DNA of 64,000 nt from Methanobacteriota archaeon (GCA_002708695.1 PAOZ01000012.1:4280-68279); one strand, 5' to 3'; counted from the stretch's first letter, positions 25,306 through 48,775 are shown. Numbers and translations: made by a program. The notes: generated by a model from the sequence alone, not told the origin.

Positions 25306-26229
25306 TTATAATCCTGAAAGAACAGCAATTACTCTAACTTCTCCAGCCATTTCACGATCAATTGATGCTCCATAAATAACATTGCAATTTTCATGAAGGC
25401 CTTTTGTGAAAGACTCGGCAATATGATCAAAATCTCGTAAAGATACTGCGCTTCCTCCTTCAATATGCAATAAACAAGCCGCAGCATTAGCAATGTCTAT
25501 CCTTTCCAAAGGGGCATCGAAAGCAGAACGAAAAATTCGATCCGCGTCAACAGCCATTCCTTCACCAACTAAAACAGTTGATCTGCCAGCTTGTGCGAGA
25601 ATTGTTCTCAAGTCCATCAAATCGAGATTAATTACACCCATTCTGGCTTGAGTGCGAATTATTCCACCAATAAGGCTTGAAACCCAACCACCTCCATCTT
25701 CCCAAGAAATACCTCTCTTCATACTACGTTGAGCTAAAGATGAAAGTGAAATCCCTATAGTAGCATGAGAAGCAGATTCTAAACGAGGTCTGGATAGTCG
25801 TGCCCATCTCATTCGAGATACCTGATCTTCGAAAGGTAAGCCCGAAATAGTAACCACTAATGCACCTGAAGAACGTGCTTGTTCGGCAATCCAAATACTG
25901 GCTCCACCTCCTACTCCGCCACCCAAAACAGTTGAAATCAAAACTAATTCGGCTCTTTCGAACATCTTACTAAAAACATGAGCGAATTCGCTAGTCCAAG
26001 AAGCAGATAATTCAGGCATTATCCCATGATTTACTTCATTAGGACCGATATGAATTGTAGATGCATTAGGATATTCCTCAAAAGAAGAAGAATCTGAATC
26101 TACTAACAATAAATCAGCAGCATTTTCCAAATCTGAATGGGCTTTTTTTGCCCACCGGCATCCAATACCACCTACTCCTACGAGAAGTAAAGCACCATCA
26201 TGCATTTGCTCACTAATCCTCGTCATCAT
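25306..26229 (-). CDS. Divergent FtsZ/tubulin-family protein with degenerate GTP-binding motifs and no C-terminal tail
   Basis: Collinear with FtsZ over both domains: 'LLLVGVGGIGCRWAKKA' (G1), 'ELVLISTVLGGGVGGGASIWIAEQARSSGALVVTISGLPFEDQVSRMRWA' (T4 signature region plus PFxFEG), 'GVINLDLMDLRTIL' (T7 NxDxxD) and '...VRVIAVLSGL' at the end. An alternative start lies at 26205. Confidence 0.7.
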   Translation of the reverse strand: MMTRISEQMHDGALLLVGVGGIGCRWAKKAHSDLENAADLLLVDSDSSSFEEYPNASTIHIGPNEVNHGIMPELSASWTSEFAHVFSKMFERAELVLISTVLGGGVGGGASIWIAEQARSSGALVVTISGLPFEDQVSRMRWARLSRPRLESASHATIGISLSSLAQRSMKRGISWEDGGGWVSSLIGGIIRTQARMGVINLDLMDLRTILAQAGRSTVLVGEGMAVDADRIFRSAFDAPLERIDIANAAACLLHIEGGSAVSLRDFDHIAESFTKGLHENCNVIYGASIDREMAGEVRVIAVLSGL

Positions 26230-26527
26230 AGGTCAAGTAACGTTGATACCTTCGCCGTTCATCTCTGGCCCAAGCATTATCAGGTTCTAATTCCAGTACC
26301 TTTCCATAATATTCAACCGCTTTTTCAAATTCAGACAAATATCGCCCATACAAATGTCCCAAATTAGAAAGTACTGGAATACAAATTGGATCGTCTTCAA
26401 GCATCCTAACTAGTAACTCTTCAGCTTGCCCTAAATCCATAGATTCCATCAAGGATTCTGCGCTATCTAATTGTTCCAACTGAAAATCAGAAAGCCGATA
26501 TATGTTCTTCCATGCGGGGCCCGCCAT
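26213..26527 (-). CDS. Small TPR-repeat protein
   Basis: 'LGQAEELLVRMLEDDPICIPVLSNLGHLYGRYLSEFEKAVEYYGKVLELEPDNAWA' is TPR-like. Its stop overlaps or abuts the FtsZ-like start. The internal ATG at 26527 is preferred over the track start at 26656. Confidence 0.55.
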   Translation of the reverse strand: MAGPAWKNIYRLSDFQLEQLDSAESLMESMDLGQAEELLVRMLEDDPICIPVLSNLGHLYGRYLSEFEKAVEYYGKVLELEPDNAWARDERRRYQRYLTYDDED

Positions 26528-26670
26528 ACTTGCAGGACAGTAAGGACAGGGCTTGAAACATGCGGAGAATTTTGTTGAAAACGAGTAGTTTTCAAGCAAT
26601 AAATTCAATTCAATTTGCAACGAACCTGATGGTACGCTGTCCATCGAAAAAAACAATTCTTAAGCCAATG

Positions 26671-26700: not shown

Positions 26701-27567
26701 ATGGGCATCGACAGTCCGTGGACTGGACCTATTAGACGGGTCTTTGCGCTTTGCCTGCTTCTTACGATTTTAGCAATCAGTCCCTCGTCTGTATATGCCT
26801 GGCCAGGTGGAATCGGAGGCGATCAAGATAACAAAGGAGATGTCGCTATTTCTGGATGTACATGCCATAATGTCGAAGTAAGTGAAAGTGTCACAATAAT
26901 ACTTGACAATGTTCCCACAACTTATACTTCAGGTGAAAACTATGAGATGATGATTCAAATTATTGGAGGGCCAGAATATCACTCTGGAGGGTCAGATTAT
27001 AGTGCAGGATTTTCAATGCGAGTTTCAGCTGGAACCCTAGGTGCAGGAGAAGGCTCTGAAGATTATGTGTCGGCAGCACCGGAAACATTCAATGGCCCTC
27101 CAAGTGAAGATACGCAAACTCTATCGCACACCAAAGCAGGAGGGAATTTAGAATCAAGGTCATGGAATATTATCTGGACAGCACCTGATTCAGAAAGTGG
27201 ACCAGTAATAATTTGGCTTGTAGGAAATTCAGTAAATGGCGATGGAGTCCCTGGTCCTCAAGACATGTGGAATAGACTCTCGGCAGTTATCATTGAAGGC
27301 GAAGATGATGGGAACCGGCGAACTGTCTTTTCAGGGGATGGAAATATTGAGCCTCCTGCCCCTCCCTCTTCCGGTCACACAGACCTCCACCATATGGGTG
27401 CTAAATTTAGAGCTCATTGGCTAGGACTTCTCGGTTTCCTATCTGTAATCTTAGTTCTGATCTTTTGCGGATTTTTCTTACGCTATGGATTTAGTAGACA
27501 TTATGAAGGAAGGAGTAACCTGCTGAAACTTAGAATTAAACATCTTAGAAGGGGTGATCAACTATGA
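26701..27567 (+). CDS. Secreted, C-terminally anchored Reeler-like/'WTAP' domain protein with CxCH motif
   Basis: Signal peptide (VFALCLLLTILAISPSSVYA), 'ISGCTCHN', 'GFSMRVSAGTL', 'WNIIWTAPDSESGPVIIWLVGNSVNGDG', a C-terminal TM helix (WLGLLGFLSVILVLIFCGFFL) and a basic tail. The upstream part of track ORF 26560 is discarded. Confidence 0.6.
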   Translation: MGIDSPWTGPIRRVFALCLLLTILAISPSSVYAWPGGIGGDQDNKGDVAISGCTCHNVEVSESVTIILDNVPTTYTSGENYEMMIQIIGGPEYHSGGSDYSAGFSMRVSAGTLGAGEGSEDYVSAAPETFNGPPSEDTQTLSHTKAGGNLESRSWNIIWTAPDSESGPVIIWLVGNSVNGDGVPGPQDMWNRLSAVIIEGEDDGNRRTVFSGDGNIEPPAPPSSGHTDLHHMGAKFRAHWLGLLGFLSVILVLIFCGFFLRYGFSRHYEGRSNLLKLRIKHLRRGDQL

Positions 27568-28013
27568 ATAATGACAAATTACTCACACTCCTAAGAGAAG
27601 TGAAGAGTGGTACAGTTTCAATTGATGACGCACGTATAGCTCTCGAAGGAGTATCCCTTAGCGAAGAACAATACAAATCAGCCATTGATCATGGTGTTTT
27701 CAATAAACCAAAACCGGGAACTGTTGTCCGAGCTACAATTTCACCTGCAGCAGAATCTGGACTAATGGTTTTATTCTTTGTTTGGGGATTATTTTGGACC
27801 ACATATTGGGCATTTACTCTCACATACGGTTTACTAAATGGGTGGGATCAACAACAACTGGCATTCCATCTTGGAATGACGTTGATGACTCTAATAATGA
27901 TGGGCATAATCTATCTTCGATTCGTGTTGCCTGACCTAGTAGTTGTCAAACATAGAAGAAACAAATATATCCCACCAAAAGATACTAATTCTTGGAAAAA
28001 ATATGATGCATGA
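27564..28013 (+). CDS. Small membrane protein (N-terminal SHOCT-like helix pair plus 2-3 TM helices)
   Basis: ATGA overlap with the upstream gene. 'LLTLLREVKSGTVSIDDARIALEG' is followed by hydrophobic helices. Confidence 0.55.
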   Translation: MNNDKLLTLLREVKSGTVSIDDARIALEGVSLSEEQYKSAIDHGVFNKPKPGTVVRATISPAAESGLMVLFFVWGLFWTTYWAFTLTYGLLNGWDQQQLAFHLGMTLMTLIMMGIIYLRFVLPDLVVVKHRRNKYIPPKDTNSWKKYDA

Positions 28014-28022
28014 GGAGTAAAT

Positions 28023-28880
28023 ATGAGTCGTAAATTCAAACTACGTCCTTCTCCAGGAGAAGTTGACGAGGTTACTGTTGGTGGCTCCAGAATGATTGAT
28101 AGGAGAGATTTTATTCGGCATTCATTCAATAGTGCTGCTGGAGTAATTGCAGCAGCTTCACTTGGTTCAATCGGATTCGCTGCATTACTAATGGGGACTG
28201 CTGAGACTGACGGAGGAGATTCAGCAGTTCGATTTTGGGTGCCTTCTGGTGCAGAAGATAGCGCTTGGTACGGAGATTTACACCTTGAACCAATGACAAA
28301 ATCAGTTTTTGAGGCTGAGGCTGCAAATTCATCCACGGGAATGGCGGGTGCCGCTGGAGTTTGGAGTGGGTTGCCGGTTACTGTAATCTATGTCCCTCAT
28401 GAAGAAAACGATGGTACTGCACCAGTTGAAAACAAGCCACGATTTCAATTTGGTGATGGATACGATCAAGCAGGAGCATATATTGGATATGGGGGAGAAA
28501 TGGAAGAAGATGCTACATATTCAGACCTTGCAATTCATAATAACATGGTGATAGTTTTCAGCAGATGCCCTCACTTATGTTGCATCCCAGGTTGGCAACT
28601 AGTTCCCAACGACTTTACCGCAGATACTTGGTACCCAGGGGGAACTGACTCAGGAGGAAACAAATTATTCTGCATTTGTCATTCAAGTCGATATGACCCT
28701 ACCATGATTGAGAAAAACCAGAACCGTAACCGAACAAATGGTACAATGTTCGAATACTTCGGAATTAAATTGACGGGAGGACCTGCTCCAGTAGGAATGC
28801 CTCTAATACCATTTGAAGTAAATGGAGATGTAATTGAGGCTCTTCCTACATATTTGGACTGGTATACATTTTGCGACTGA
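28023..28880 (+). CDS. Rieske [2Fe-2S] protein with twin-arginine signal
   Basis: TAT motif 'DRRDFIRHS' plus an h-region. Rieske ligand boxes 'CPHLCCIPGW' (CxH) and 'CICHSSRYD' (CxxH). Confidence 0.85.
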   Translation: MSRKFKLRPSPGEVDEVTVGGSRMIDRRDFIRHSFNSAAGVIAAASLGSIGFAALLMGTAETDGGDSAVRFWVPSGAEDSAWYGDLHLEPMTKSVFEAEAANSSTGMAGAAGVWSGLPVTVIYVPHEENDGTAPVENKPRFQFGDGYDQAGAYIGYGGEMEEDATYSDLAIHNNMVIVFSRCPHLCCIPGWQLVPNDFTADTWYPGGTDSGGNKLFCICHSSRYDPTMIEKNQNRNRTNGTMFEYFGIKLTGGPAPVGMPLIPFEVNGDVIEALPTYLDWYTFCD

Positions 28881-28891
28881 GGTGAAAAAAA

Positions 28892-29764
28892 ATGATTGAA
28901 TCAATAGTTCTCTGGATTTTCTTAGCAGTAATCCTAGTCATAGTTGCGTTCACCCTAAGAAAAGAACGCGAGGAAGTCCCTAGAAAGGAGATCTTGAGAG
29001 CAGTTCAAACCACCGCAGGACCAGGAGGAATGGGGCTTCTAGAGAAATCATTCCTTTGGGCATTTTCATGGATGGATACAAGATTCAGAATGCAAGATTA
29101 TTGGGCAATGTCAAGAGATGCATATTACAGTATGCATCGACAAATGCCTCTAACTCATGCAGAAAAATACAAACTAAGAATAATTTGGTATTGGTACCCT
29201 CTATATTGCTTAGGAGGAATTTCATTCCTAGCATTCATTATATTGGTAATCACGGGAACCATTCTTGGAATCTATTATGTTCCAGGAGGGCAAGGAGACC
29301 CTACTCCCGCATATGCTAGCATGGAATTCATCATGACTCAATTGCCATTTGGATATATTATTAGATCCATTCATCATTGGACAACTCACTTCATGGTTGC
29401 AGCAGTTTTCCTCCACATGTGCAGAGTATACTTCACAGGAGCATACCGCAATCCTCGAGAGTTAAACTGGCTAATTGGCGTGGCACTGATGTTTTTCACC
29501 ATCTTCTTTGGATATTCGGGATATCTGCTTCCTTGGGACGCTCTGGCATTTGGAGCTGCTACAATTGGAATCAATATGGCGAATGCAACACCACTAATTG
29601 GACCATGGGTTGCAACTGCAATGTTTGGAGGAAGCACCCTAACATATCAAGCAGTAACAAGAATGTATTTCATCCACGTTTTCATCCTACCAGTTCTAGT
29701 TACAACTTTGATAATCATCCATTTGTTCATTGTATGGGTCCAAGGAGTTGCTGAACCGCACTGA
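28892..29764 (+). CDS. Cytochrome b, N-terminal (b6-like) half
   Basis: 'IRSIHHWTTHFMVAAVFLHMCRVYFTGAYRNPRELNWLIGVALMFFTIFFGYSGYLLPWD' carries the bis-His heme-ligand helices and the PREL/GYxLPW signature. There are additional TM helices. Confidence 0.85.
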   Translation: MIESIVLWIFLAVILVIVAFTLRKEREEVPRKEILRAVQTTAGPGGMGLLEKSFLWAFSWMDTRFRMQDYWAMSRDAYYSMHRQMPLTHAEKYKLRIIWYWYPLYCLGGISFLAFIILVITGTILGIYYVPGGQGDPTPAYASMEFIMTQLPFGYIIRSIHHWTTHFMVAAVFLHMCRVYFTGAYRNPRELNWLIGVALMFFTIFFGYSGYLLPWDALAFGAATIGINMANATPLIGPWVATAMFGGSTLTYQAVTRMYFIHVFILPVLVTTLIIIHLFIVWVQGVAEPH

Positions 29765-29778
29765 TAGGAGGAGATTAA

Positions 29779-32604
29779 ATGGGGATTATCGAAAGATTAG
29801 GACGCGTTGCTGACACCTATGTTGGCGAACGTGATCAACTCATTGAGGCAGAGCAACAACGTCGAAGAGTGTTCACAGGTCATGCTTTCTGGCCACAAGA
29901 GGCACTTAGAGACACAATTATTGCAATGTCTATTCTAATGGTTCTAAGTTTCTACGCTTGGCTAATACCTCCACCTCTACACAGTGCAGCAGATCCATTT
30001 GCACAAGCAGGTTTCGTTTTCCCTGATTGGTATGTTCTTTTCTCATATGGATATCTTCGTTTAGGAGAATATTTACCTCAATTCGATATCCCTCTCCCTA
30101 CAGCAATTGGTAATTTTTTCGGAACTCCAATTATTTCCTGGAATGCAGGATGGTGGGGGGCAGCAATTACTGGAATTCCAGTAACTATTCTTGCTCTTCC
30201 TCCTTTCATTGGAGGTAGAGAAAAACGAGGAGTTGAAGATCCATGGTTTGCTACAGCAGGGATGGTTTATCTTGCTCATGTTTGGTTTATCTCAGTATAT
30301 TCAATCAATATCTTCCTAGAATTATATGGGAAAAATAGAACTGATTTTTGTCAGATGAATTCCCATGCTGGTTTATCCTGTGGGACGAGAGAACCATGGA
30401 TTGCTGAAGTGTTCAATAGTATACCTTGGTTGTTAACAGGAGTATTCATTTTCGCAGTTCTTTATTTTGGAATTCGTTGGTTCTTAGTCCAAACACAAGG
30501 TGCTAGAATAACCCCTAATGGCAATAGAAATGTGGCATTCGGATCACTCCTAGTAGCAGTATTACTCTGTTCTGTAACTTGGCCTGTATACGATAACGGA
30601 TTCTGGGACATGAAGGGATTCGGAGCAATGCAGGATATCGAAGAATTAGAAACTCTAAGAAGCCAACCTAGTGACACATTGGTAGCAATAGAAGAAAGTC
30701 ATCATCATGAACATATGATGGGTCTGTGCTTATCCTATAGCGATTCATCAAAATCCCCTGCTTGGAATGATGATCACTTTGATTCGGGGGCATGGGCATA
30801 CGAAGATTACTGTGTTATGCCCGCAGAAAAATTCTCTGAATGGGGGATTTTCCAACCCACGCAGAATTATCTCATCGATTTCAACGGAGCAAACAACCAC
30901 GTAGACTCAAACAATGGAAGAAATGGATTATTCAACGAATCAATACACCCAGGATCAATCGATGGTTCAGCAGTTGAACACTCATTTTCTGGTGTAATGG
31001 AGGTTCCAAATCTGGGAGTAGACACACTATTCGTGGACGTAACGTGTAATGTAAGAACTACAATTAGAGGTGCTGGAAACCATTCTATTTCTCTAGATGT
31101 CAAGGATATTAGTGGAACTACTCTCTTATCCATGGATTCCTGTGCTACTGAATCATTGAAATTGAGTAGCGGAACATCTTATTCCCTTGACTATTCAATT
31201 ATTACAACCGGATTGGATATCTCTGGAGATGTCATCACAGACGTTTCAATTACTGCATTCCAGCCATTAGTTCTAGATTCAAACGGAGTAGCAGTAGACC
31301 TTTCTGATGAAACTGAATTATTCATGTTAACTGGATCAACGATTTACAATGCAGAACTACTGTCTGATTTCACTATTGAAAACCCAACATTTGAGAAGAA
31401 TCCTAAGAGTTTGGATGCAAAATTAACCTATTCTTTGGTCATCCCATGTTTGGGCGTAGGAGCACTTGTTTTCTTCCTAATGCGAAGTATGGCAAGAGGA
31501 TATGAATATGAAATGAACAAATGCTATGGATGTGACCTCTGTGATGATGCTTGTCCTGTTAGACTATTTAATGCAGGAGATAAGCTGAATATCATTTACA
31601 ATACATGGAACAATGAGGACGATGGAGTTCCTCTTTATTCCTGTCTAACTTGCACTGCCTGTACAAACGCATGCCCTCAGTTAGTAGATTACGATTCATA
31701 TATTGACATTAGGCGAAATCTAATTGTTGGGGGCCCACCTGCGGCTGAAATCCCTCATTCAATTCTTCAAGCAGTTCTACGAGCAGAAGCAGATGACGAA
31801 GCGAATGACCAATTTGTTCCGGTTGAAGAATACCCTATTGATTCATCAGTAGGATACTATCCAGGTTGTGTCGATTATATCGATCAAGAAATGATTTTCA
31901 GTCATGTAAATGAAGGTACAATGAATCTGGGGCAAACTACTGATGCAGCATTTACTTTGTTTGAAGATGCAGAAATTAATGTAGCGTATTTAGGAAGAGA
32001 TTTCCTAAAATGTTGTGGCCATGACCAAAAATGGCAAGGAATGACTGAAGTTTTTGAAAAATTAAAAGCATATAATCAAAAGAAATTGGGACATAGTGGC
32101 ATTGAAACATTGGTTACTTCTTGTGCAGAATGCTTCAGAACATTTGCAATGGATTACGAACTAGATGATCTTAAGGTAATGCATACTACTGAGTTTTTGA
32201 TAGAATCAGGATATGACTTCGATGCAGCTGTTCCAAAAGGTACGACAGTAACATACCACGACCCATGTAGATTAGGACGACAAATGAATCTCTTTGAAGA
32301 ACCGCGTGAATTAGTAAAGCGAATAGAAGGAGTGGATCTAGTAGAGATGGAACATCATGGTGAAGATGCATTATGTTGTGGTGTTTCAAGTATGATGTCA
32401 TGTAACGAGAATTCTAGAGCCCTTCGAATTGAACGGTTTGAAGAAGTTCGAGCAACAGGTGCAGAGATTATGCTAACAACTTGTCCAAAATGCGTTTCTC
32501 ACTTCGAATGTTTGAAATTTGAAGGGGATCCAAGACATGACTTTGAAATCTTAGATGTTGTGTCCTTCTTAGCAAGGCAAATAGAAGAAAAGAAACAAAT
32601 TTAA
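29779..32604 (+). CDS. Fusion: cytochrome b C-terminal (subunit IV-like) membrane domain + large outward-facing domain + TM + HdrD/GlpC-like module (2x[4Fe-4S], 2xCCG)
   Basis: 'FVFPDWYVLFSYGYLRL' is the PEWY-type Qo loop. There are 5 predicted TM helices, a non-hydrophobic domain of about 265 aa with 'ESHHHEHMM', then a TM helix (LVIPCLGVGALVFFLM). Next come 'CYGCDLCDDACP' and 'CLTCTACTNACP', then two CCG domains ('PGC...KCCGHD...SCAEC' and 'DPCRLGR...LCCGVSS...CPKC'). Confidence 0.8.
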   Translation: MGIIERLGRVADTYVGERDQLIEAEQQRRRVFTGHAFWPQEALRDTIIAMSILMVLSFYAWLIPPPLHSAADPFAQAGFVFPDWYVLFSYGYLRLGEYLPQFDIPLPTAIGNFFGTPIISWNAGWWGAAITGIPVTILALPPFIGGREKRGVEDPWFATAGMVYLAHVWFISVYSINIFLELYGKNRTDFCQMNSHAGLSCGTREPWIAEVFNSIPWLLTGVFIFAVLYFGIRWFLVQTQGARITPNGNRNVAFGSLLVAVLLCSVTWPVYDNGFWDMKGFGAMQDIEELETLRSQPSDTLVAIEESHHHEHMMGLCLSYSDSSKSPAWNDDHFDSGAWAYEDYCVMPAEKFSEWGIFQPTQNYLIDFNGANNHVDSNNGRNGLFNESIHPGSIDGSAVEHSFSGVMEVPNLGVDTLFVDVTCNVRTTIRGAGNHSISLDVKDISGTTLLSMDSCATESLKLSSGTSYSLDYSIITTGLDISGDVITDVSITAFQPLVLDSNGVAVDLSDETELFMLTGSTIYNAELLSDFTIENPTFEKNPKSLDAKLTYSLVIPCLGVGALVFFLMRSMARGYEYEMNKCYGCDLCDDACPVRLFNAGDKLNIIYNTWNNEDDGVPLYSCLTCTACTNACPQLVDYDSYIDIRRNLIVGGPPAAEIPHSILQAVLRAEADDEANDQFVPVEEYPIDSSVGYYPGCVDYIDQEMIFSHVNEGTMNLGQTTDAAFTLFEDAEINVAYLGRDFLKCCGHDQKWQGMTEVFEKLKAYNQKKLGHSGIETLVTSCAECFRTFAMDYELDDLKVMHTTEFLIESGYDFDAAVPKGTTVTYHDPCRLGRQMNLFEEPRELVKRIEGVDLVEMEHHGEDALCCGVSSMMSCNENSRALRIERFEEVRATGAEIMLTTCPKCVSHFECLKFEGDPRHDFEILDVVSFLARQIEEKKQI

Positions 32605-32654
32605 TTTGATTAAAAAGCCCAAGATTTGACAACAAAAGGAGAACACTGAAACAC

Positions 32655-32987
32655 ATGTCGACTCGAGAGGAGGTTGCTTATCGTCGTGATGACATGCAAA
32701 AAAGAATCAGAATGGCTCTCAATGCTGCTAAAGCCGAAGAAAGATCGAATATCAAAGGTGGAGAAACAACTGTAGCATTTGTTAACGAGGGGCAGTGTAT
32801 TGGTTGTGATCAATGCACCATTGTATGTGACGATGATGCAATCGAACTATACGATAAAGCAATGGCTAGCCCATTAATACAAGTCGATATAAATCGAAAA
32901 GCGAAGGTGCTTCGTGATCCATGCACAGGGTGTAGATTATGCGTTTTAGCTTGCCCAACTGATGCAATAATAATGATTGACAGATAA
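32655..32987 (+). CDS. 2x[4Fe-4S] ferredoxin-domain protein
   Basis: 'CIGCDQCTIVCDDDAI' and 'CTGCRLCVLACPTDAI'. AGGAG lies 12 nt upstream of the ATG. Confidence 0.8.
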   Translation: MSTREEVAYRRDDMQKRIRMALNAAKAEERSNIKGGETTVAFVNEGQCIGCDQCTIVCDDDAIELYDKAMASPLIQVDINRKAKVLRDPCTGCRLCVLACPTDAIIMIDR

Positions 32988-34313: not shown

Positions 34314-34598
34314 ATGGACGAAGACGAAGCCGATCCAGTTAGGTTCGGAGCAGAATTTGGCCCATATAGATCTAGTAGAACAAGTGGTGTTTCACTTTCG
34401 ACATTCAAAACACTAGTCTGGACTTCAAACATTGGAGGATTAATATTGATGGTAATTGGACTAGAATTGATGATTGTCCAACATGCATATTCTTGGGCAT
34501 TGTTATGCTTTGTTTTTGGAGTAGGAATTGCATTATTCCCCTCAAACTATGAAATAGTTGGCATGGAAGAAAATCAATCTTCTAATGATGATACATAA
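34314..34598 (+). CDS. Small two-TM hypothetical protein
   Basis: ORF with two hydrophobic helices. Its 3' end overlaps the convergent ligase gene by 25 nt. Confidence 0.3.
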   Translation: MDEDEADPVRFGAEFGPYRSSRTSGVSLSTFKTLVWTSNIGGLILMVIGLELMIVQHAYSWALLCFVFGVGIALFPSNYEIVGMEENQSSNDDT

Positions 34599-35788
34599 TC
34601 AAGATTTTCCATCCCCATCGCAATCATTGAGATATTCGCAACTAAAGTATGCAACCATCTTCTATTTATTACTTGTAGAGATGCTTCTTTGGATAAATCA
34701 TGGTCAAGAATGAATTTGGTTGAAGGCGTGTTAAGATTATCTAAAATCCCATGCTTTTCATTAGATCGGAAAAACCATGATACTACTTCACCATTCACTC
34801 CATATCCTACTGGTTCAATAACCGACTGATTAGATGTTAAAAAAGTAGGAACCGCTTCCTGAAGTAAAAAATCTTCAGCATCCTTTCCTCCTTTAGCATA
34901 GGTCAACCTGTTCATCTTTCGTTTTGATAGGTTTAGAATTTCTTCAGGGTCTTCAACACGAATAATTCCTAATCCATATGTTCCTCGATCATTCTTAATG
35001 AATAAAGAGGGTTTGGAATCAATGTTATATTGCTTATATTTTCCAGAAATAAATTCTAAACCCTCATGAATATCTCCTGCGAGTCTTTCCCTACAGAATT
35101 TATCTTCTAAACATCTACCTCGACTAATGAAACCCCAAGGGCCGATAAGCCAAGGATCAATTCCAACTAAATCTCCCAATTCATGAACTAAATCTGAAAC
35201 ATGTTCAAAATGGCGACATTTACTCCTTGAATGCCACCCCATATGACTAGGAGGAAATACATTAACACCAGAGATATTGAGGGGGCCATCACTCAAATCT
35301 GAATTAAGAAAAATAGTGTCAATATTTTCTCCATCGGCGTTCACAAAATCATCTTCGACATTTACATCAACAAAAGATAAATCACCAAATGATGTTGAAA
35401 CCGTTTGAGAATTCAATAAATCTGTACCAACCAATATCTCAATTCCAATTCCTTCAATTAAGGATTTAATGACATGAATATTATCTAGATAGCCAGAATT
35501 ACGAGTATGAGCTTCTGGCCAAAGCAGTAAACATTCAGGTTTATGTTCTAGATTTTCAAACCATCTTTTCAAACCCATAGATAATTTCTCAAGATCATTT
35601 GGATTTAGATTATTAAATCCAGCAGGAAATGCATTGGCATCGACAACAACTGTCTTCCATCCAGCATCTCGAATATCAAATGAACCATATATTGGAAGAG
35701 GGATGTTTTTTCTTTTTTGTTCCAACCATTCAAGGATTATATTTTTCTTATCAAATAATGATGCAAAAGAAGATTGAAACACGTCCAT
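34574..35788 (-). CDS. Carboxylate-amine ligase resembling the rare 'T. ferrooxidans-type' glutamate--cysteine ligase (GshA, PF08886-like)
   Basis: 404 aa. 'IYGSFDIRDAGWKTVVVDANAFPAGFNNL' resembles, from memory, the N-terminal signature of that family. The start codon overlaps the asnB-like stop (TAATG). Confidence 0.5.
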   Translation of the reverse strand: MDVFQSSFASLFDKKNIILEWLEQKRKNIPLPIYGSFDIRDAGWKTVVVDANAFPAGFNNLNPNDLEKLSMGLKRWFENLEHKPECLLLWPEAHTRNSGYLDNIHVIKSLIEGIGIEILVGTDLLNSQTVSTSFGDLSFVDVNVEDDFVNADGENIDTIFLNSDLSDGPLNISGVNVFPPSHMGWHSRSKCRHFEHVSDLVHELGDLVGIDPWLIGPWGFISRGRCLEDKFCRERLAGDIHEGLEFISGKYKQYNIDSKPSLFIKNDRGTYGLGIIRVEDPEEILNLSKRKMNRLTYAKGGKDAEDFLLQEAVPTFLTSNQSVIEPVGYGVNGEVVSWFFRSNEKHGILDNLNTPSTKFILDHDLSKEASLQVINRRWLHTLVANISMIAMGMENLDYVSSLED

Positions 35789-38599: not shown

Positions 38600-39472
38600 C
38601 TATTGCCGAATTATTCTTTGAATTGCTTGTTCTATGGAAATTCGTCCTTCCGCCAAATCATCTACAGTTGAATCGAAGGAAGGGTTCGAAACTAATTCAT
38701 CCATTATAGCCGATGAAAGTCTATGCCTCCATTTCACTATCTCTACCGAAGCACGTAACTGTATATTCTCTAATGCTTCCACTAGTTCATTTATTCCTGT
38801 TCTATTTAATGCACTCACGATCAATACTGGAACATTTGAGGCCGGTCCAAGTGCTAGACCTGAACGAATATTGGCAGCAGCCTGTTCAGAACCAGGCAAA
38901 TCACCCTTATTCACCACAACCACATCAGCTAACTCTAGTAATCCGGCTTTCTCTGCTTGAACAATATCTCCTCTGTCTGGCCCATCAACAAGTAAAATCG
39001 AATCAGTCATTGAAACAATCCCAATCTCTGTTTGTCCAACTCCCACTGTCTCCACCAATATTCTATCCATTCCTGCCATTGAAAGAGCCGAAATCATGGC
39101 CTTAAGACGTAATGGCATAGAACCATGAGAATTTCTAGTTGCAACACTACGAACATAAATTCGATCATGGACACCACTTTGTTCCATCCTCATTCTATCT
39201 CCTAGAAGTGAACCACCACTGATTGGCGAACTAGGATCGATGCACAAAACTCCAATACGTTCTCCCTTATCTGCAAATATTTTGGCCAAACAATCTGTAA
39301 GGCAAGATTTTCCCACTCCAGGTGGTCCAGTAATTCCTATAGATTTAACAGAAGAAAAAGACAATACAGAATCAATACATTCTTGATCTCCTTGCTGAAT
39401 TAGAGTAAGTAATCGAGCGAGAGCTCTCCGAGAACCATTTGATGCTTCAACAATTAGTTGGGATTGATCCAT
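38600..39472 (-). CDS. meaB: Methylmalonyl-CoA mutase-associated GTPase MeaB/ArgK
   Basis: 'GITGPPGVGKS', 'CIDPSSPISGGSLLGDRMRM' and 'VVVNKGD'. The ATG at 39472 lies 4 nt after the upstream stop; the track start at 39592 would overlap by 116 nt. Confidence 0.85.
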   Translation of the reverse strand: MDQSQLIVEASNGSRRALARLLTLIQQGDQECIDSVLSFSSVKSIGITGPPGVGKSCLTDCLAKIFADKGERIGVLCIDPSSPISGGSLLGDRMRMEQSGVHDRIYVRSVATRNSHGSMPLRLKAMISALSMAGMDRILVETVGVGQTEIGIVSMTDSILLVDGPDRGDIVQAEKAGLLELADVVVVNKGDLPGSEQAAANIRSGLALGPASNVPVLIVSALNRTGINELVEALENIQLRASVEIVKWRHRLSSAIMDELVSNPSFDSTVDDLAEGRISIEQAIQRIIRQ

Positions 39473-39476
39473 TGAA

Positions 39477-39923
39477 TCATCTCCAATGCCAACCATCGGA
39501 AAAACCAACTCCAACTGGTTCGTTCGAAATTCTACGTTTTTTAACTTCATTAAGGAAATGAAGGAATTCTTCAGTGGGAGTTCCTGGTCCAAAAATTGCT
39601 CTTACTCCTGACGAAAACAAATCAGGACGATCGGCCATAGGGATTATTCCTCCACCAAAAACTACGATGTCATTCAAACCATTTTCTCTTAATAAATCAC
39701 AAACTCTAGGAAACAAAAATCCATGGGCGCCAGATAACGATGATAATCCTAGAATAGATGCATCTTCATCCTCTACAATGCGAATTATCTCTTCGGGGGT
39801 CCTACGTAATCCGGTGTAAATTACTTCATGACCTGCATCTCGAAGAGCTCTTGCAACTACTTTTGCACCCCGATCATGTCCATCAAGGCCTGGTTTGGCC
39901 ACGACTATACGGAGGGGACCCAT
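39477..39923 (-). CDS. Methylmalonyl-CoA mutase, B12-binding (small/C-terminal) subunit
   Basis: '[34 protein letters not shown]' carries the DxHxxG cobalamin motif, with 'GLSSLSGAH' and 'VVFGGGIIP'. The start is set at MGPLRIV; the longer track ORF overlaps the divergent gene. Confidence 0.85.
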
Positions 39924-40017
39924 GCCCCTCGAGTTCAGCCGTTTAACTTGAATCAACCGTCTCAAATATACTCTTTCAAGGGCATGAATTATGGGCAACT
40001 TCGTGGAATGAGAGAAC

Positions 40018-41568
40018 ATGGAGACGACAGAGGAGCGACTCCAAGACCTCAGGCGGCGCAAAGAACAAGCCGAAATCGGTGGCGGCCAAAATAGAATCGA
40101 TGCACAACATAACAAAGGAAAAATGACTGCACGGGAACGAATTGAAGCATTCTTAGACGCAGGTACATTCCAAGAGATAGATGCTCTAGTTGAACATAGA
40201 TGTACTGATTTCGGAATGGATCGAAATGTTATTCCAGGAGATGGAGTAGTTTGTGGGTATGGAACTGTTGAAGGTCGTACAGTATACTGTTATGCCCAAG
40301 ATTTTACAGTATATGGAGGAAGTCTAGGCGAAATGCATGGACTAAAAATTTGTAAATTACTGGATATGGCTCTCAAAACTGGAGCACCCGTAGTAGGCAT
40401 GAACGACAGCGGGGGTGCACGAATTCAGGAGGGTGTTGCTTCTCTTGGTTCATATGCAGAAATTTTCTTCCGAAATGTCAGGGCTAGCGGAATCATACCT
40501 CAGATTTCAGTAATTATGGGGCCATGCGCTGGAGGCGCAGTATACAGTCCAGCAATTACAGACTTTGTAGTGATGGTTGATCAAACCGCTCACATGTTTA
40601 TTACTGGCCCAGAGGTCATCAAAACAGTAACGAATGAAGAAGTTTCATTCGAAGAATTAGGTGGGGCAAACACTCATGCAACTAGATCAGGGGTCACTCA
40701 TTTCACAGCAGAATCCGATGAAGATGCCTTAGATTTAGTTAGAAATTTACTTGGGCATTTACCAAGTAATAATCTTGAAAGGACACCACAATCTCCCTCT
40801 GGAAAACCATCGATTGATTCAGAAACATTACGAAATCTAATTCCAGAAGACCCATCTAAACCATATGATGTAATTACAGCTATAGAAGGGATAGTTGACC
40901 ATGGTGCATTTTTAGAAGTCCAAGCAAATTTCGCCCAGAATATCGTTTGTGGATTTGCACGTCTAGAAGGGCAATCAATAGGCGTAGTAGCCAATCAACC
41001 AAATTTCCTAGCAGGATGTTTGGATATTGATGCATCTGTAAAAGCAGCAAGATTTGTAAGATTCTGTGACGCTTTCAACATCCCTCTAGTTACTCTTGTT
41101 GATGTTCCAGGATTTTTGCCTGGAGCAGGACAAGAATGGGGAGGAATTATTCGCCATGGTGCAAAACTTCTCTATGCATATGCTGAAGCCACTGTTCCAA
41201 AGATGACTGTGATATTAAGAAAGGCATATGGAGGCGCATACGATGTAATGTCATCAAAGCATATTCGAGGAGATTACAATATTGCTTGGCCTACGGCTCA
41301 ACTTGCTGTAATGGGAGCCGAAGGAGCAGTTCAGATAATCCATAGAAAACGAATTCAATCATCTGGAAATCCTGAACAAGAGCGAGAAAGACTAGTGGAA
41401 GATTATACTGAATCATTTGCTACACCGTACAAAGCTGCATCTCTAGGATACTTGGACGATGTAATAGACCCCGCAGAAACACGAGAACGTCTTTCTCGTG
41501 CTCTTGGTCACCTTATGGATAAAGAAGAGCCAAGGCCCTCTCGAAAACATGGTAATATCCCACTCTGA
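40018..41568 (+). CDS. Propionyl-CoA carboxylase beta chain / methylmalonyl-CoA carboxyltransferase
   Basis: '[19 protein letters not shown]', '[14 protein letters not shown]', '[13 protein letters not shown]' and '[14 protein letters not shown]' are typical of the carboxyltransferase 12S/PccB family. Confidence 0.9.
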
Positions 41569-42554: not shown

Positions 42555-43922
<1,368 letters not shown>

Positions 43923-48300: not shown

Positions 48301-48775
48301 AACCACTAGAGGAATGATAGTCACTACCAAATTGAATTGAACTATAGTAAATACCTGTTATACTGACGTTTCCACCCTTATCAACATCAATATCATAACA
48401 ATAATCAGAACTAGTAGAACCCGCTGTCTTAACCCATAACCAGTCACCAGTTACAGACAATTTTGCAACAAAAATATCAGCAGAATTACTACTTGAAGCA
48501 GGTGTGGAAAGTGTTCCTAAATTCATTGTTTGGTGATAATAACCACAAACATACACATTGCCAAAATCATCAACGTCAATACTTTGGATATTATCTGAAC
48601 CAGAACCTCCTGCATTCTCAAACCAAAGTAATTGAGATGAACTTGCTCTAGGGGAAAAATCAGAATCAATTTCATCCTCAAGCGACACAATACTATCAAA
48701 ATCGTAGGAATTAATCAAAATTGGAGTGAGAAAAAATATCACTAGAACAACACTCAAACGCCGCTTCATGGACAT
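45362..48775 (-). CDS. Large surface protein: signal peptide, beta-propeller-type (SBBP-like) repeats, thrombospondin type-3 Ca-binding repeats, TM anchor, Q/W-rich cytoplasmic tail
   Basis: 1137 aa. It has repeated 'G.SSDY..GV..D..GN.Y.TGY' units and many 'DSDGDGWSD/DTDGDGMGD/DRDGDGWSD' units. A TM helix (ILVIIMIGAIMSVLVW) is followed by a tail ending QQGWGQQGWNQQ. Confidence 0.75.
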   Translation of the reverse strand: MSMKRRLSVVLVIFFLTPILINSYDFDSIVSLEDEIDSDFSPRASSSQLLWFENAGGSGSDNIQSIDVDDFGNVYVCGYYHQTMNLGTLSTPASSSNSADIFVAKLSVTGDWLWVKTAGSTSSDYCYDIDVDKGGNVSITGIYYSSIQFGSDYHSSSGSYDIFVAVLDTSGNWIWSNTVGASSSDYAHGVAIAESGNVYITGYWSSGTLNFGSAGSIQCGSCYSDGFLASLDSQGNWRWVERIGGSYYERGRSVAVDSQERVYVTGEFSYNVEFSGMTLNNGNRGYDYWGFIAQYSSSGSHSWAEEFGYSSYETYPEGISVDAGGNATVCGRFYGYSEFSGNRLQANQNSWDMFVAQISPTGNWNWYDKGGGSSTDYCYEVSTEWDTGEIAVTGYYYSTGVFGPYGLSSTGSNDVFAATISSTGSWNWVKGYGTTSGDSGYGAAILGNETYFGFNYPTQLTIDGSSVSHSGSNDFVLVVHGIDSDGDNVGDRTDRFPIDSTQWSDFDRDGFGDNWGDPSWNASRSGGIGVYRDGATTPDYCPVAYGTSTRDVYGCPDDDGDGQSDSNDAFIGNSTQWEDLDSDGYGDNTEGEAPDDCPNVWGTSTKDSFGCPDLDSDGWSDLVDDFFNKPSQWKDTDGDGMGDNWRISSWNSSRMNHWPGMWVEGAYLPDPSPLDRDNDGYEDVELEQSMGPFDDCPDTPGTSFRDRIGCIDSDGDGWSDISDAMPDNPDQSSDSDGDGFGDSPGFPDSDDCPTRQGTSSIDQVGCPDNDGDGISNDGDDCPVDFGESSNGCPDSDEDGIPDVAESGLVDDCPTEWGSSFEDRIACPDRDGDGWSDSGDSYPSDSSQWADSDGDGWGDNPNGTDPDSCPEEYGESTENGLVGCPDTDGDGFADLIDGNATVPGGWSNDASLWSDTDGDGWADQQGFEQSDDCPLVAGNSTRFTKGCPDFDGDGWADMVDPDDDNDGFTTFDEINVGTDPFDANDVPLDADGDNTPDQLQQGSTIDPAVQTGVSIGILVIIMIGAIMSVLVWKSSNSRRSNFERLRNSIDNAEGYEGIHEVEKEVEDLSEKGRIDAGQTALLFDRIGDRRYRLEEEMRAAQQAEWWAHQQAQGQQIQQHVDPNTYAQQGWGQQGWNQQ

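What the first reader, a model, noticed from the sequence alone, without database searches (positions are those of the whole stretch)
26701..32987. Rieske/cytochrome b operon with a non-canonical subunit set
Six same-strand genes are packed with a 4-nt overlap and 9-50 nt gaps. In order they encode:
- a secreted Reeler-like CxCH protein;
- a small TM protein;
- a TAT-signal Rieske protein;
- the cytochrome b N-terminal half;
- the cytochrome b C-terminal half fused to an HdrD-like FeS/CCG module;
- a 2x[4Fe-4S] ferredoxin.

No CxxCH (c-type heme) motif occurs in any of the six products, and no cupredoxin signature is evident. The usual high-potential exit (cyt c1/f or a blue copper protein) is therefore missing. 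At the same time two cytoplasmic FeS proteins are added. I do not know of a characterised complex with this composition.
Basis: partly seen in the sequence, partly recalled or inferred. Interest (0 to 1): 0.85.

Follow-up and report, generated by a model that had tools for sequence, protein, structure and literature searches.

The report
Archaeal b6-type complex III with iron-sulfur wire
This is the conserved respiratory "complex III" of the abundant marine Group II archaea: a b6f-like quinol oxidase whose membrane core is fused to a cytoplasmic iron-sulfur module, and whose usual c-type cytochrome is replaced by a beta-sandwich protein carrying a shortened haem motif. It has never been studied biochemically.

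Summary
Six same-strand genes (overlap of 4 nt, then gaps of 9, 11, 14 and 50 nt) encode:
- a Reeler-fold CxCH protein with a C-terminal anchor;
- a small DUF7318 membrane protein;
- a TAT-signal Rieske protein;
- a cytochrome b6-like protein with four haem histidines and the haem-ci cysteine;
- subunit IV fused to an HdrD-like 2x[4Fe-4S] + 2xCCG module;
- a 2x[4Fe-4S] ferredoxin.

No CxxCH motif occurs in any ORF of the 64-kb window. The fusion is real. It is present in 80 Poseidoniales species genomes, and genes 1-5 keep the same order in every locus with enough sequence.

The high-potential exit is probably not missing. Gene 1 belongs to a family (NCBIfam choice-of-anchor V) whose bacterial members carry canonical CxxCH exactly where the archaeal proteins have CxCH. 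In sister clusters the same slot holds a cupredoxin with a homologous anchor, or a multihaem cytochrome c.

The closest solved relative of the FeS/CCG module is mycobacterial EtfD, which wires cytoplasmic electrons to haem b and quinone. I therefore favour electron input at the n-side, from ferredoxin or a flavoprotein to haem bH/ci and then quinone.

The hdrD-like and rnfB-like neighbours were already noted briefly in the literature. This is a new variant of a known kind.

The parts
26701..27567 (+). g1: membrane-anchored Reeler-fold (choice-of-anchor V) protein with an invariant G-C-x-C-H motif (C53, C55, H56). It is the candidate p-side electron acceptor, analogous to cytochrome f/c1.
   Evidence: - Family: NF041895 at 82.7 bits.
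- Fold: F-spondin Reeler domain, E 1e-5. A family profile hits Spondin-1 at 8.6e-7.
- Motif: GC[TLY]CH in 63 of 65 orthologs. Bacterial homologs have CxxCH or CX4CH at the same column.
- Anchor: the C-terminal anchor is homologous to that of a cupredoxin in L086, BLASTP 7e-9.
27564..28013 (+). g2: small protein with two TM helices (DUF7318-like), a conserved accessory subunit.
   Evidence: - PF24002 at 25.1 bits.
- A DUF7318 gene sits between the p-side redox protein and the Rieske gene on P0158's contig, in L086 and in L001.
- Present in 65 of the 83 loci scanned.
28023..28880 (+). g3: Rieske [2Fe-2S] protein with a twin-arginine signal/anchor and a long insertion before the cluster domain.
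   Evidence: - RR at residues 27-28.
- C182-P-H-L-C-C and C217-I-C-H220.
- The motif is conserved in 70 of 70 orthologs.
- The family profile hits bc1 Rieske subunits (8smr_C at 2.9e-7).
28892..29764 (+). g4: cytochrome b6-like subunit with an extra N-terminal TM helix. It has four haem-ligand His residues and the CxGG cysteine that binds haem ci/cn in b6f.
   Evidence: - PF00033 at 1.9e-40.
- 1VF5_A cytochrome b6 at 3e-42. The alignment pairs lYCLGG with FYCLGG and matches both His pairs, with 14 residues between the helix-D His.
- [LFW]YC[LF]GG in 75 of 78 orthologs.
29779..30594 (+). g5, residues 1-272: subunit IV / cytochrome b C-half (helices E-G, PDWY Qo motif), plus a p-side loop with two conserved Cys and two extra TM helices.
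   Evidence: - The profile of this part hits the C-half of cytochrome b (9fks_a at 6e-12) and b6f subunit IV (5e-7).
- P82-D-W-Y85 is invariant in 19 sequences.
- TM helices were assigned by hydropathy.
30592..31416 (+). g5, residues 272-546: an extracytoplasmic beta-sandwich domain specific to the lineage, with no conserved metal ligands.
   Evidence: - Absent from the distant fused relatives.
- HHHEHMM is not conserved.
- The model has pLDDT 70.8. Its best fold hits are GOLD, CBM and MAM-like domains, with no cupredoxin or cytochrome.
31417..31494 (+). g5, residues 547-572: the last TM helix (p to n), which returns the chain to the cytoplasm. It aligns with the fourth helix of the short fused relatives.
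   Evidence: Hydropathy and alignment A1.
31504..32505 (+). g5, residues 576-909: HdrD/EtfD-like cytoplasmic module with two cubane [4Fe-4S] motifs and two CCG domains.
   Evidence: - PF02754 at 2.8e-22 and Fer4_8/9/10.
- NCBIfam's best hit is TfrB, 108 bits, below its cutoff.
- The best solved relative is 9OJN_A (mycobacterial EtfD) at 3.5e-24 (PMC13083937).
- All 8 cubane-cluster Cys and 9 of the 10 CCG Cys are invariant. C746 is V or T in two distant relatives.
32655..32987 (+). g6: 2x[4Fe-4S] ferredoxin (the 'RnfB-like' protein of the literature) with a 40-aa N-terminal extension.
   Evidence: - Fer4_21 at 3e-13.
- TIGR01944 rnfB at 48.7 bits, under the cutoff of 68.7.
- Present near the cluster in 79 of 83 loci, but on the opposite strand in Poseidoniaceae.
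- Its best match in L086 is the polyferredoxin that follows the CCG gene.

Best explanation
**Shown.** The locus encodes the complex III of Poseidoniales (Marine Group II archaea). It is a b6f-type Rieske/cytochrome b complex.

- The core is a TAT-exported Rieske protein, a split cytochrome b with four haem histidines, the haem-ci cysteine, and a PDWY Qo motif.
- The DUF7318 protein is a conserved small subunit.
- Subunit IV is covalently fused to an HdrD/EtfD-like module on the cytoplasmic (n) side. A small ferredoxin is encoded next to it.

**Inferred, p-side.** Quinol is oxidised at Qo. One electron goes through the Rieske cluster to g1. g1 is a C-terminally anchored Reeler-fold protein descended from a CxxCH family. 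It takes the place of cytochrome f/c1, most likely with a haem held by the CxCH histidine and one or both cysteines. From g1 the electron passes on towards the haem-copper oxidase.

**Inferred, n-side.** The FeS/CCG module works like mycobacterial EtfD. It is an electron-input wire that takes electrons from the adjacent ferredoxin, or from a cytoplasmic flavoprotein such as ETF. It passes them through the CCG clusters and two cubane clusters to haem bH/ci and the quinone at the n-side site. Complex III would then double as a ferredoxin (or flavoprotein):quinone reductase. This would be a hard-wired version of the ferredoxin-to-haem-ci route proposed for cyclic flow in b6f.
For: **Identity of the parts:**

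**Conservation.**
- The full-length g5 fusion occurs in 80 Poseidoniales species genomes at 53-95% identity.
- g1-g5 keep the same order and strand in every locus with enough upstream DNA (63 loci). g6 lies nearby in 79 of 83 loci.

**Wider family.**
- The subunit IV + Fer4 + CCG fusion, or subunit IV + Fer4 with a separate CCG gene, is found in distant lineages.
- Those lineages share the gene order: [p-side redox protein]-[DUF7318]-[Rieske]-[cyt b]-[fusion]-[polyferredoxin, or FAD protein + Fer4 + MvhD].

**g1 as the exit.**
- Bacterial homologs carry CxxCH or CX4CH at the aligned column (35 of 36 sequences; the one exception is truncated).
- The same slot is a multihaem cytochrome c in L001/L002, and a cupredoxin (YCFPHKGDKM) with a homologous anchor in L086.
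- Diamond 2022 found a plastocyanin-like gene upstream of the Rieske gene in 23 of 30 Angelarchaeales loci.

**Input direction.**
- The closest solved relative of the module is EtfD (9OJN, 3.5e-24).
- In that structure the CCG clusters, cubane clusters, haem b and menaquinone form a wire from cytosolic ETF to quinone (PMC13083937).
- The host is an aerobic heterotroph that degrades proteins and fatty acids (PMC6336850).
- Diamond 2022 independently proposed ferredoxin entry at complex III.
- The haem-ci cysteine is conserved in 75 of 78 orthologs. In b6f this haem faces the n-side (established knowledge).
Against: - No cofactor, activity or subunit contact was measured or modelled. The tools fold single chains only and return no coordinates, so the distance between the first FeS cluster and haem bH/ci is unknown.
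- CxCH is not a known haem c attachment motif. The Reeler fold has no proven redox member.
- No cytochrome c maturation gene is in the window, and MGII genomes could not be scanned whole.
- Both CCG motifs in MGII keep the Hdr-type five cysteines, which in HdrB catalyse disulfide reduction. A thiol/disulfide substrate, and hence the output direction, is not excluded.
- g6 is on the opposite strand in Poseidoniaceae. The whole region is syntenic within the order, so its linkage there is weak evidence.
- L084 has SLGG in place of CLGG, so haem ci is not universal in the wider family.
- g4 has W and V where b6 has R207 and K208, near the n-side site.
Confidence: 0.5

Rival explanations
1. **Output direction.** Qo-site bifurcation sends the low-potential electron through bL, bH/ci and the FeS wire to reduce a cytoplasmic acceptor instead of quinone at Qi. 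The acceptor would be a low-molecular-weight or protein disulfide at the CCG clusters, or ferredoxin via g6. This would be a hybrid of a bc complex and HdrDE/DsrMK, like the NAD(P)-reducing Rieske/cyt b complexes proposed for anammox bacteria.
For: - Both CCG motifs keep the Hdr-type cysteine set.
- The best NCBIfam match is thiol:fumarate reductase TfrB.
- In HdrDE and DsrMK, electrons run from quinol through two b haems to an HdrD-like subunit (established knowledge).
- Distant relatives add HdrC/B/A-like and MvhD/FlpD genes directly downstream.
- A gamma-glutamylcysteine ligase gene lies 1.6 kb downstream here, and lies downstream in 45 of 83 loci.
Against: - The closest solved homolog, EtfD, runs in the input direction in an aerobe.
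- The host is an obligate aerobic heterotroph with no evident need for quinol-driven reductant.
- The electron would have to move against the membrane potential to a couple more negative than quinone.
- The gshA linkage may reflect only order-wide synteny.
Confidence: 0.2
2. **Independent module.** The FeS/CCG domain uses subunit IV only as a membrane anchor. It reduces quinone at a site of its own, as GlpC, SdhE or GlcF-type CCG proteins do, with no electron exchange with the b haems.
For: - CCG proteins often serve as membrane-proximal electron outlets of flavoprotein dehydrogenases (established knowledge).
- NCBIfam also matches LdhH, GlpC and GlcF.
- GlcD-like FAD oxidase genes lie near the cluster in L086.
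Against: - The fusion to subunit IV, or adjacency to it, is kept across very distant lineages. These also keep the Rieske, cytochrome b and DUF7318 genes.
- The first FeS motif starts about 10 residues after the last TM helix, which puts it at the n-side face of the cytochrome b core.
Confidence: 0.15
3. **g1 is not a redox subunit.** It would be a structural or cell-surface protein. The Rieske cluster would reduce a mobile cupredoxin or other carrier encoded elsewhere in the genome.
For: - The Reeler fold is known from adhesion and matrix proteins.
- CxCH is not an established cofactor motif.
- The model's confidence around the motif is only moderate, pLDDT about 67-69.
- Archaeal complex III is generally thought to use small blue copper proteins.
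Against: - C53, C55 and H56 are invariant across archaeal and bacterial members, and the bacterial ones read CxxCH.
- The slot and the anchor are shared with a cupredoxin and with a multihaem cytochrome.
- No cupredoxin occurs in the window, and none recurs in the flanks of 81 loci.
Confidence: 0.25

Closest known systems
Cytochrome b6f complex (and the Firmicute/heliobacterial b6c-type complexes)
   Same: - Cytochrome b is split into a four-helix b6 part and a subunit IV part.
- There are four haem His residues, with 14 residues between the helix-D pair.
- The CxGG cysteine for haem ci/cn is present.
- The PEWY-type Qo motif is present (PDWY, as in Bacillus).
- The Rieske protein is TAT-exported.
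- The p-side acceptor is a beta-sandwich protein with an N-terminal Cys...Cys-His motif and a C-terminal anchor, the same layout as cytochrome f.
- In Bacillus, subunit IV is also fused to its redox partner, a c-type cytochrome.
   Different: - There is no cytochrome f homolog by sequence. g1 is a Reeler-domain relative with CxCH.
- Subunit IV has extra helices and an ecto-domain, and is fused on the n-side to an FeS/CCG module.
- A ferredoxin gene accompanies the cluster.
- PetG/L/M/N were not looked for.
- DUF7318 is present instead.
Mycobacterial EtfD (Rv0338c; PDB 9OJN) and its relatives FadF and DgcB
   Same: - It is the closest solved sequence relative of the g5 cytoplasmic module (3.5e-24).
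- It has two cubane [4Fe-4S] motifs and two CCG domains fused to a haem b membrane domain.
- It works in an aerobe and wires cytosolic electrons to quinone.
   Different: - EtfD's membrane part is a five-helix mono-haem domain, not a Rieske/cyt b core.
- EtfD's first CCG site has four Cys (linear [3Fe-4S]). MGII g5 keeps the five-Cys Hdr pattern, whereas two distant relatives have the EtfD-like C[VT]G.
- The donor for g5 is unknown.
HdrDE, DsrMK and other HdrD-like/cytochrome b pairs
   Same: An HdrD-like subunit with 2x[4Fe-4S] + 2xCCG is coupled to a di-haem membrane cytochrome b that talks to the quinone or phenazine pool.
   Different: - Their cytochrome b is NarI/HdrE-type, with no Rieske protein or Q-cycle.
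- Their substrates (CoM-S-S-CoB, DsrC trisulfide) are not expected in an aerobic marine heterotroph.
Non-canonical Rieske/cyt b complexes of anammox bacteria (R/b-2, R/b-3), and the complex III loci of Angelarchaeales
   Same: - The Rieske/cyt b core is encoded with extra cytoplasmic FeS or flavoprotein subunits.
- In Angelarchaeales, hdrD-like and rnfB-like genes sit beside complex III, and ferredoxin entry has been proposed (PMC9038741).
   Different: - The anammox complexes carry NAD(P)-type flavoproteins and multihaem cytochromes.
- Angelarchaeales use a plastocyanin-like protein upstream of the Rieske gene. Poseidoniales have the CxCH Reeler protein there.
- The subunit IV fusion, DUF7318 and the CxCH/CxxCH link were not described in the papers I could search.

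Membership tests
Rieske/cytochrome b (bc1/b6f) complexes | Rieske protein with the CxH..C / CxCH cluster-binding boxes and an export signal | tested here: met
   CPHLCC...CICH and RR. Conserved in 70 of 70 orthologs. The profile hits bc1 Rieske subunits at 2.9e-7.
Rieske/cytochrome b (bc1/b6f) complexes | Cytochrome b with two His pairs for haems bL and bH | tested here: met
   The alignment to 1VF5_A cytochrome b6 pairs all four His residues. PF00033 at 1.9e-40.
Rieske/cytochrome b (bc1/b6f) complexes | PEWY-type Qo motif in the C-half / subunit IV | tested here: met
   PDWY is invariant in 19 sequences. The profile hits the cytochrome b C-half at 6e-12.
Rieske/cytochrome b (bc1/b6f) complexes | Canonical c-type cytochrome subunit (c1, f or di-haem c) with CxxCH | tested here: not met
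   No CxxCH in the six products or in any ORF of the window. g1 has CxCH.
Rieske/cytochrome b (bc1/b6f) complexes | Quinol:acceptor oxidoreductase activity with a Q-cycle | not testable with these tools
   Needs biochemistry.
b6f-type subclass | Split cytochrome b, the CxGG cysteine for haem ci/cn, and 14-residue spacing of the helix-D His pair | tested here: met
   g4 and g5 are separate genes. YCLGG aligns with FYCLGG of b6. The motif is present in 75 of 78 orthologs.
HdrD / CCG-domain FeS proteins (including EtfD) | Two CxxCxxCxxxCP motifs followed by two CCG domains (C..CCG..CxxC) | tested here: met
   Motifs at residues 582-593 and 622-633. CCG at 745 and 866, with CxxC at 782 and 902. 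PF02754 at 2.8e-22. 9OJN_A at 3.5e-24.
Heterodisulfide reductase HdrDE proper | NarI-type HdrE partner and a CoM-S-S-CoB substrate | tested here: not met
   The membrane partner is bc-type subunit IV, not HdrE. All NCBIfam Hdr, TfrB and DsrK models score far below their cutoffs. The substrate is not testable.
Rnf complex subunit RnfB | Score above the family cutoff and co-occurrence with RnfACDEG | tested here: not met
   TIGR01944 at 48.7 bits against a cutoff of 68.7. No Rnf genes were found in the window. Tully 2019 reports that RnfACDEG are absent from MGII.
Choice-of-anchor V / Reeler-domain family | Score above the NCBIfam cutoff and a Reeler beta-sandwich fold | tested here: met
   82.7 bits against a cutoff of 42. 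Foldseek top hits are F-spondin Reeler domains, TM 0.57-0.59. The profile hits Spondin-1 at 8.6e-7.
c-type cytochromes | CxxCH (or a known variant) motif with covalent haem, and a maturation system in the genome | tested here: inconclusive
   The archaeal motif is CxCH, which is not a known variant. Homologs carry CxxCH or CX4CH at the same column. No maturation genes are in the window. Whole genomes could not be scanned. A CcdA-like gene lies upstream in L085.
Cupredoxins | His...Cys-x(n)-His-x(n)-Met ligand set in a cupredoxin fold | tested here: not met
   No Pfam hit and no pattern in the six products. The g5 ecto-domain folds as a GOLD/CBM-like sandwich. HHHEHMM is not conserved.

The most novel reading that the evidence does not exclude
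The most abundant planktonic archaea run a b6-type complex III with two unprecedented features.

1. A covalently attached FeS wire, with a dedicated ferredoxin, exchanges electrons directly with haem bH/ci on the n-side. The complex would then also act as a ferredoxin/flavoprotein:quinone reductase, or run in reverse as a quinol-driven reductase. This is a natural, hard-wired form of the long-debated ferredoxin-to-haem-ci pathway of b6f.
2. Its cytochrome f/c1 equivalent is a Reeler-fold protein that binds haem through a new contracted CxCH motif. It belongs to an undescribed family of beta-sandwich c-type cytochromes that is also widespread as secreted proteins in bacteria.
Probability: 0.3. 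Interest if true: 0.9.

Novelty: new variant of a known kind. Interest (0 to 1): 0.72.

Why it matters
- **Scale.** Poseidoniales are among the most abundant archaea in the surface ocean. This is their only recognisable complex III, so it carries a large share of marine archaeal respiration, yet no protein of it has been studied.
- **Open question in bioenergetics.** The fusion of subunit IV to an EtfD/HdrD-like wire, beside a haem-ci-type cytochrome b6, offers a genetically fixed model for whether soluble reductants can feed the n-side of a Rieske/cyt b complex. This is the ferredoxin:quinone reductase problem of cyclic electron flow.
- **Evolution of bc complexes.** It resembles the 'membrane-anchored dehydrogenase' stage proposed for the origin of bc complexes (Dibrova et al.).
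- **A possible new cytochrome class.** The link between CxCH Reeler proteins and bacterial CxxCH homologs points to an unrecognised class of beta-sandwich cytochromes, and possibly to a new haem-binding motif.

Tried and rejected
1. **Metal site in the g5 ecto-domain.** I asked whether the His/Met-rich HHHEHMM stretch marks a copper or haem site, in the position where Bacillus QcrC has its cytochrome c. I rejected this. The stretch is not conserved and is deleted in Poseidoniaceae. The domain folds as a generic GOLD/CBM-like sandwich.
2. **Assembly or frameshift artefact for the g5 fusion.** Rejected.
3. **g6 as part of an Rnf complex.** Rejected: it scores below the cutoff and no partner genes are present.
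4. **A cupredoxin or cytochrome c just outside the cluster.** None is in the window, and none recurs in 81 loci.
5. **Single-sequence PDB searches.** The search with g3 found nothing. The g5 N-terminus gave only E 0.016. Family profiles were needed.
6. **Sequence homology of g1 to cytochrome f.** There is no PDB hit at E <= 1. There is only a weak fold hit at rank 35. I treat it as analogy only.
7. **Literature searches that returned nothing.**
   - Reeler + CXXCH.
   - Reeler + DOMON + heme + bacterial.
   - Marine Group II + cytochrome c maturation.
8. **Data that could not be obtained.**
   - The DNA of P0158's 167-kb contig could not be fetched.
   - Of the 269 confirmed genome loci, the 189 beyond the best 80 were not returned, so the full taxonomic range is unknown.
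Full report
**1. Observation**

The six ORFs exist as described, all on the + strand. Their coordinates are 26701-27567, 27564-28013, 28023-28880, 28892-29764, 29779-32604 and 32655-32987. The spacings are -4, 9, 11, 14 and 50 nt.

None of the six products contains CxxCH. Neither does any ORF of 60 aa or more in the whole 64-kb window.

The window is archaeal. It holds an RNA polymerase A/B/H operon, a single tRNA-Lys, and close matches to Poseidoniales MAGs. At about 40% G+C, the composition is even across the locus.

**2. What each gene is**

*g1.*
- It scores 82.7 bits on NCBIfam NF041895, 'choice-of-anchor V', against a cutoff of 42.
- It has a signal peptide and a C-terminal TM helix.
- An AlphaFold model (pLDDT 77) is a beta-sandwich. 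Its best PDB matches are the F-spondin Reeler domains, at E 1e-5 and TM 0.57-0.59.
- A family profile also hits Spondin-1 by sequence at 8.6e-7.

*g2.*
- It is a two-TM protein that scores just under the DUF7318 threshold.

*g3.*
- It has a twin-arginine motif and the Rieske boxes CPHLCC and CICH.
- Pfam misses it.
- A profile built from orthologs, including one that Pfam does recognise as Rieske, hits Rieske subunits of bc complexes at 2.9e-7.

*g4.*
- It is closest to cytochrome b6 (1VF5_A, 3e-42).
- The alignment pairs both His pairs, with the b6-type 14-residue spacing in helix D.
- It also pairs g4 'YCLGG' with b6 'FYCLGG', whose cysteine binds haem ci/cn.
- This motif is present in 75 of 78 orthologs.

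*g5, N-terminal part.*
- It carries an invariant PDWY motif.
- As a family profile it hits the C-half of cytochrome b (6e-12) and b6f subunit IV (5e-7).

*g5, C-terminal part.*
- It has two CxxCxxCxxxCP motifs and two complete CCG motifs.

*g5, middle part in Poseidoniales.*
- Between the two parts lie a p-side loop with a conserved Cys pair, two extra TM helices, a ~275-aa ecto-domain and a final TM helix. The hydropathy parity is consistent with N-in, C-in.
- The ecto-domain has no conserved metal ligands. The HHHEHMM stretch varies and is deleted in Poseidoniaceae.
- It folds as a GOLD/CBM-like sandwich.

*g6.*
- It is an eight-Cys 2x[4Fe-4S] ferredoxin.
- It scores below the RnfB cutoff.

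**3. Conservation**

Within Poseidoniales:
- The full-length fusion is found in more than 100 protein clusters at 90% identity, from many contigs.
- It is found in 80 Poseidoniales species-representative genomes, covering both Thalassarchaeaceae and Poseidoniaceae, at 53-95% identity.
- g1-g5 keep the same order and strand in all 63 loci with enough upstream DNA.
- g6 is nearby in 79 of 83 loci. In Poseidoniaceae it lies 0.3-5 kb away on the opposite strand.
- The flanks (an FtsZ-like gene, a TPR gene, gshA and an asparagine synthase gene) are also syntenic. Within-order synteny alone therefore says little about g6.

Outside Poseidoniales:
- A HMMER scan of 1.84 billion representative proteins with residues 1-575 of g5 found only 137 hits.
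- Among the full-length ones, most are subunit IV fused to Fer4 + CCG without the MGII insert (P0158, P0170, P0189, P0215, P0244, P0238), or subunit IV + Fer4 with the CCG domain as the next gene. One hit is the Bacillus-type fusion of subunit IV to a di-haem cytochrome c.
- Their neighbourhoods repeat one gene order:
  - a p-side protein;
  - a DUF7318 protein;
  - a Rieske protein;
  - cytochrome b, sometimes with Big_5 or choice-of-anchor V ecto-domains;
  - the fusion;
  - then either a polyferredoxin, an FAD protein + Fer4 + FlpD/MvhD, or HdrC-, HdrB- and HdrA-like genes + FlpD.
- The FeS addition is thus an old, conserved trait of this branch of Rieske/cyt b complexes.

**4. The p-side exit is probably present**

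The first position of these clusters is filled in three ways:
- a choice-of-anchor V protein with CxCH (Poseidoniales, L084, L085; a Reeler-annotated gene on P0158's contig);
- a multihaem cytochrome c (L001/L002);
- in L086, a protein with a plastocyanin-type loop (FYCFPHKGDKM; PF00127 at E 0.0024, below threshold).

The C-terminal anchor of the L086 protein aligns with that of g1 (RAxWxGxxG...SRHY...HxRxG; BLASTP 7e-9).

Diamond et al. 2022 report a plastocyanin-like gene upstream of the Rieske gene in 23 of 30 Angelarchaeales complex III loci.

Searching with the distant archaeal domains recovered 36 mostly bacterial homologs. Many have a Reeler Pfam hit and a type-IX secretion tail. Where the archaeal proteins read G-C-x-C-H, these read ...TGAPGEG-x-C-x-x-C-H, or CX4CH in seven cases. 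The only exception is a truncated sequence.

C53, C55 and H56 are invariant in the joint alignment. H143 is conserved in most members.

g1 therefore descends from what looks like a beta-sandwich mono-haem c family. Its layout is a signal peptide, about 20 residues, the Cys...Cys-His motif, a beta-sandwich and a C-terminal anchor. This mirrors cytochrome f, but I found no sequence homology to it, so I treat the resemblance as analogy.

Whether CxCH still binds haem, covalently or not, is open. No maturation genes are in the window. A CcdA-like gene lies upstream of the two CxCH genes in L085.

**5. The n-side module**

By sequence, its closest solved relative is 9OJN_A at 3.5e-24. This is Mycobacterium smegmatis EtfD.

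In the EtfD cryo-EM structure, two CCG-domain clusters, two cubane clusters, a haem b and menaquinone form a wire with 4-9 A gaps. The wire carries electrons from cytosolic ETF to the quinone pool in an aerobe (PMC13083937).

In g5 the first cubane motif begins about ten residues after the last TM helix, so the module must sit on the n-side face of the cytochrome b core.

Three further points favour electron input (ferredoxin or a flavoprotein, then FeS, then haem bH/ci, then quinone):
- the conserved haem-ci cysteine;
- the adjacent ferredoxin;
- the host's aerobic, protein- and lipid-degrading lifestyle (PMC6336850).

This is also what Diamond et al. suggested in one sentence for Angelarchaeales.

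The reverse direction is not excluded. In that case Qo bifurcation would drive reduction of a disulfide or ferredoxin, as in HdrDE and DsrMK or in the anammox proposals. Its support is as follows:
- MGII keeps the five-Cys Hdr pattern in both CCG sites. Two distant relatives have the EtfD-like C[VT]G in the first site.
- Relatives add HdrABC/MvhD-like genes.
- gshA is a conserved neighbour.

I could not model subunit contacts or distances with the tools at hand.

**6. Comparison with what is known, and novelty**

The core passes every sequence test for a b6f-type Rieske/cyt b complex except the canonical c-type cytochrome.

The cytoplasmic module is a member of the HdrD/EtfD CCG family, but it is not HdrDE. 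g6 is not RnfB in the strict sense.

Prior literature noted the following:
- MGII has cytochrome b and Rieske genes but no canonical bc1, and has an orphan RnfB (Tully 2019).
- hdrD-like and rnfB-like genes lie beside complex III in Angelarchaeales (Diamond 2022).

In the searchable literature I found no description of these features:
- the subunit IV fusion;
- the DUF7318 subunit;
- the haem-ci motif in this lineage;
- the CxCH/CxxCH Reeler family.

I rate this a new variant of a known kind. It is uncharacterised and sits in a globally abundant organism.

**7. Verdict**

Identity of the complex is near certain. My confidence in the proposed mechanism is about 0.5.

Noticed in passing
P0401-P0436; alignment A7: A mostly bacterial family of ~200-300-aa secreted proteins. 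Each has an N-terminal '...TGAPGEG-x-CxxCH' (or CX4CH) motif followed by a Reeler-like beta-sandwich. Many also have a type-IX secretion (Por_Secre_tail) C-terminus. It looks like an undescribed class of beta-sandwich mono-haem c-type cytochromes.
   Followed up: partly
L084:6337-7932: In this distant relative the cytochrome b gene carries its own N-terminal choice-of-anchor V domain with a CX4CH motif (GTCADLGCH). This is in addition to a separate CxCH gene. Its haem-ci motif reads SLGG, so the cysteine is lost.
   Followed up: partly
L086:5094-6083 and neighbours: The first gene of this sister cluster is a cupredoxin-like protein (FYCFPHKGDKM) with the same C-terminal anchor as g1. The CCG domain is a separate gene. 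The cluster sits beside the A-type ATP synthase operon, and two GlcD-like FAD oxidase genes lie downstream.
   Followed up: partly
L001:5092-13875; L002:4808-14955: A related Rieske/cyt b/subunit IV-HdrD cluster starts with a multihaem cytochrome c. It is followed directly by HdrC-like, HdrB-like and HdrA-like (1010 aa in L002) genes, an FlpD/MvhD-like gene and another multihaem cytochrome. It looks like a Rieske/cyt b complex joined to a flavin-based bifurcation module.
   Followed up: no
L085:311-1993 (- strand): A 560-aa protein with a CcdA/DsbD transmembrane domain ('cytochrome c biogenesis') lies about 0.6 kb upstream of the first of two tandem CxCH choice-of-anchor V genes. This is a hint that the cysteines of the motif need redox handling.
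   Followed up: partly
window 34574-35788 (- strand): A glutamate-cysteine ligase (GshA) gene lies 1.6 kb downstream of the cluster. It is found downstream in 45 of 83 related loci. That places low-molecular-weight thiol synthesis next to an Hdr-type CCG module, but it may be plain synteny.
   Followed up: no
L031-L083 (Poseidoniaceae loci), g6 ortholog: In MGIIa the ferredoxin gene is kept near the cluster but on the opposite strand, 0.3-5 kb away with intervening genes. Co-transcription with g1-g5 is therefore not conserved across the order.
   Followed up: partly
window 53513-62560 (- strand): A 3015-aa ORF with a transglutaminase core and Big_3_5, MG2 and CarboxypepD_reg domains: a giant probable surface protein. 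Next to it, at 45362-48775, is an 1137-aa protein with SBBP beta-propeller repeats.
   Followed up: no
window 38600-41568: Genes for MeaB, a B12-binding methylmalonyl-CoA mutase subunit and a carboxyl transferase (the propionyl-CoA pathway), with glutamate dehydrogenase at 42555-43919. These fit amino-acid and odd-chain fatty-acid catabolism, which would supply ETF or ferredoxin electrons.
   Followed up: no
g5 residue 746; alignment A1, P0170 and P0189: The first CCG motif reads CCG in Poseidoniales (five Cys, as in HdrB). It reads CVG or CTG in two distant fused relatives, matching the four-Cys site that binds a linear [3Fe-4S] cluster in EtfD.
   Followed up: no
window 25306-26656 (- strand): A divergent FtsZ/tubulin-family gene and a small TPR protein lie immediately upstream. 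They are syntenic with the cluster in essentially all Poseidoniales loci.
   Followed up: no
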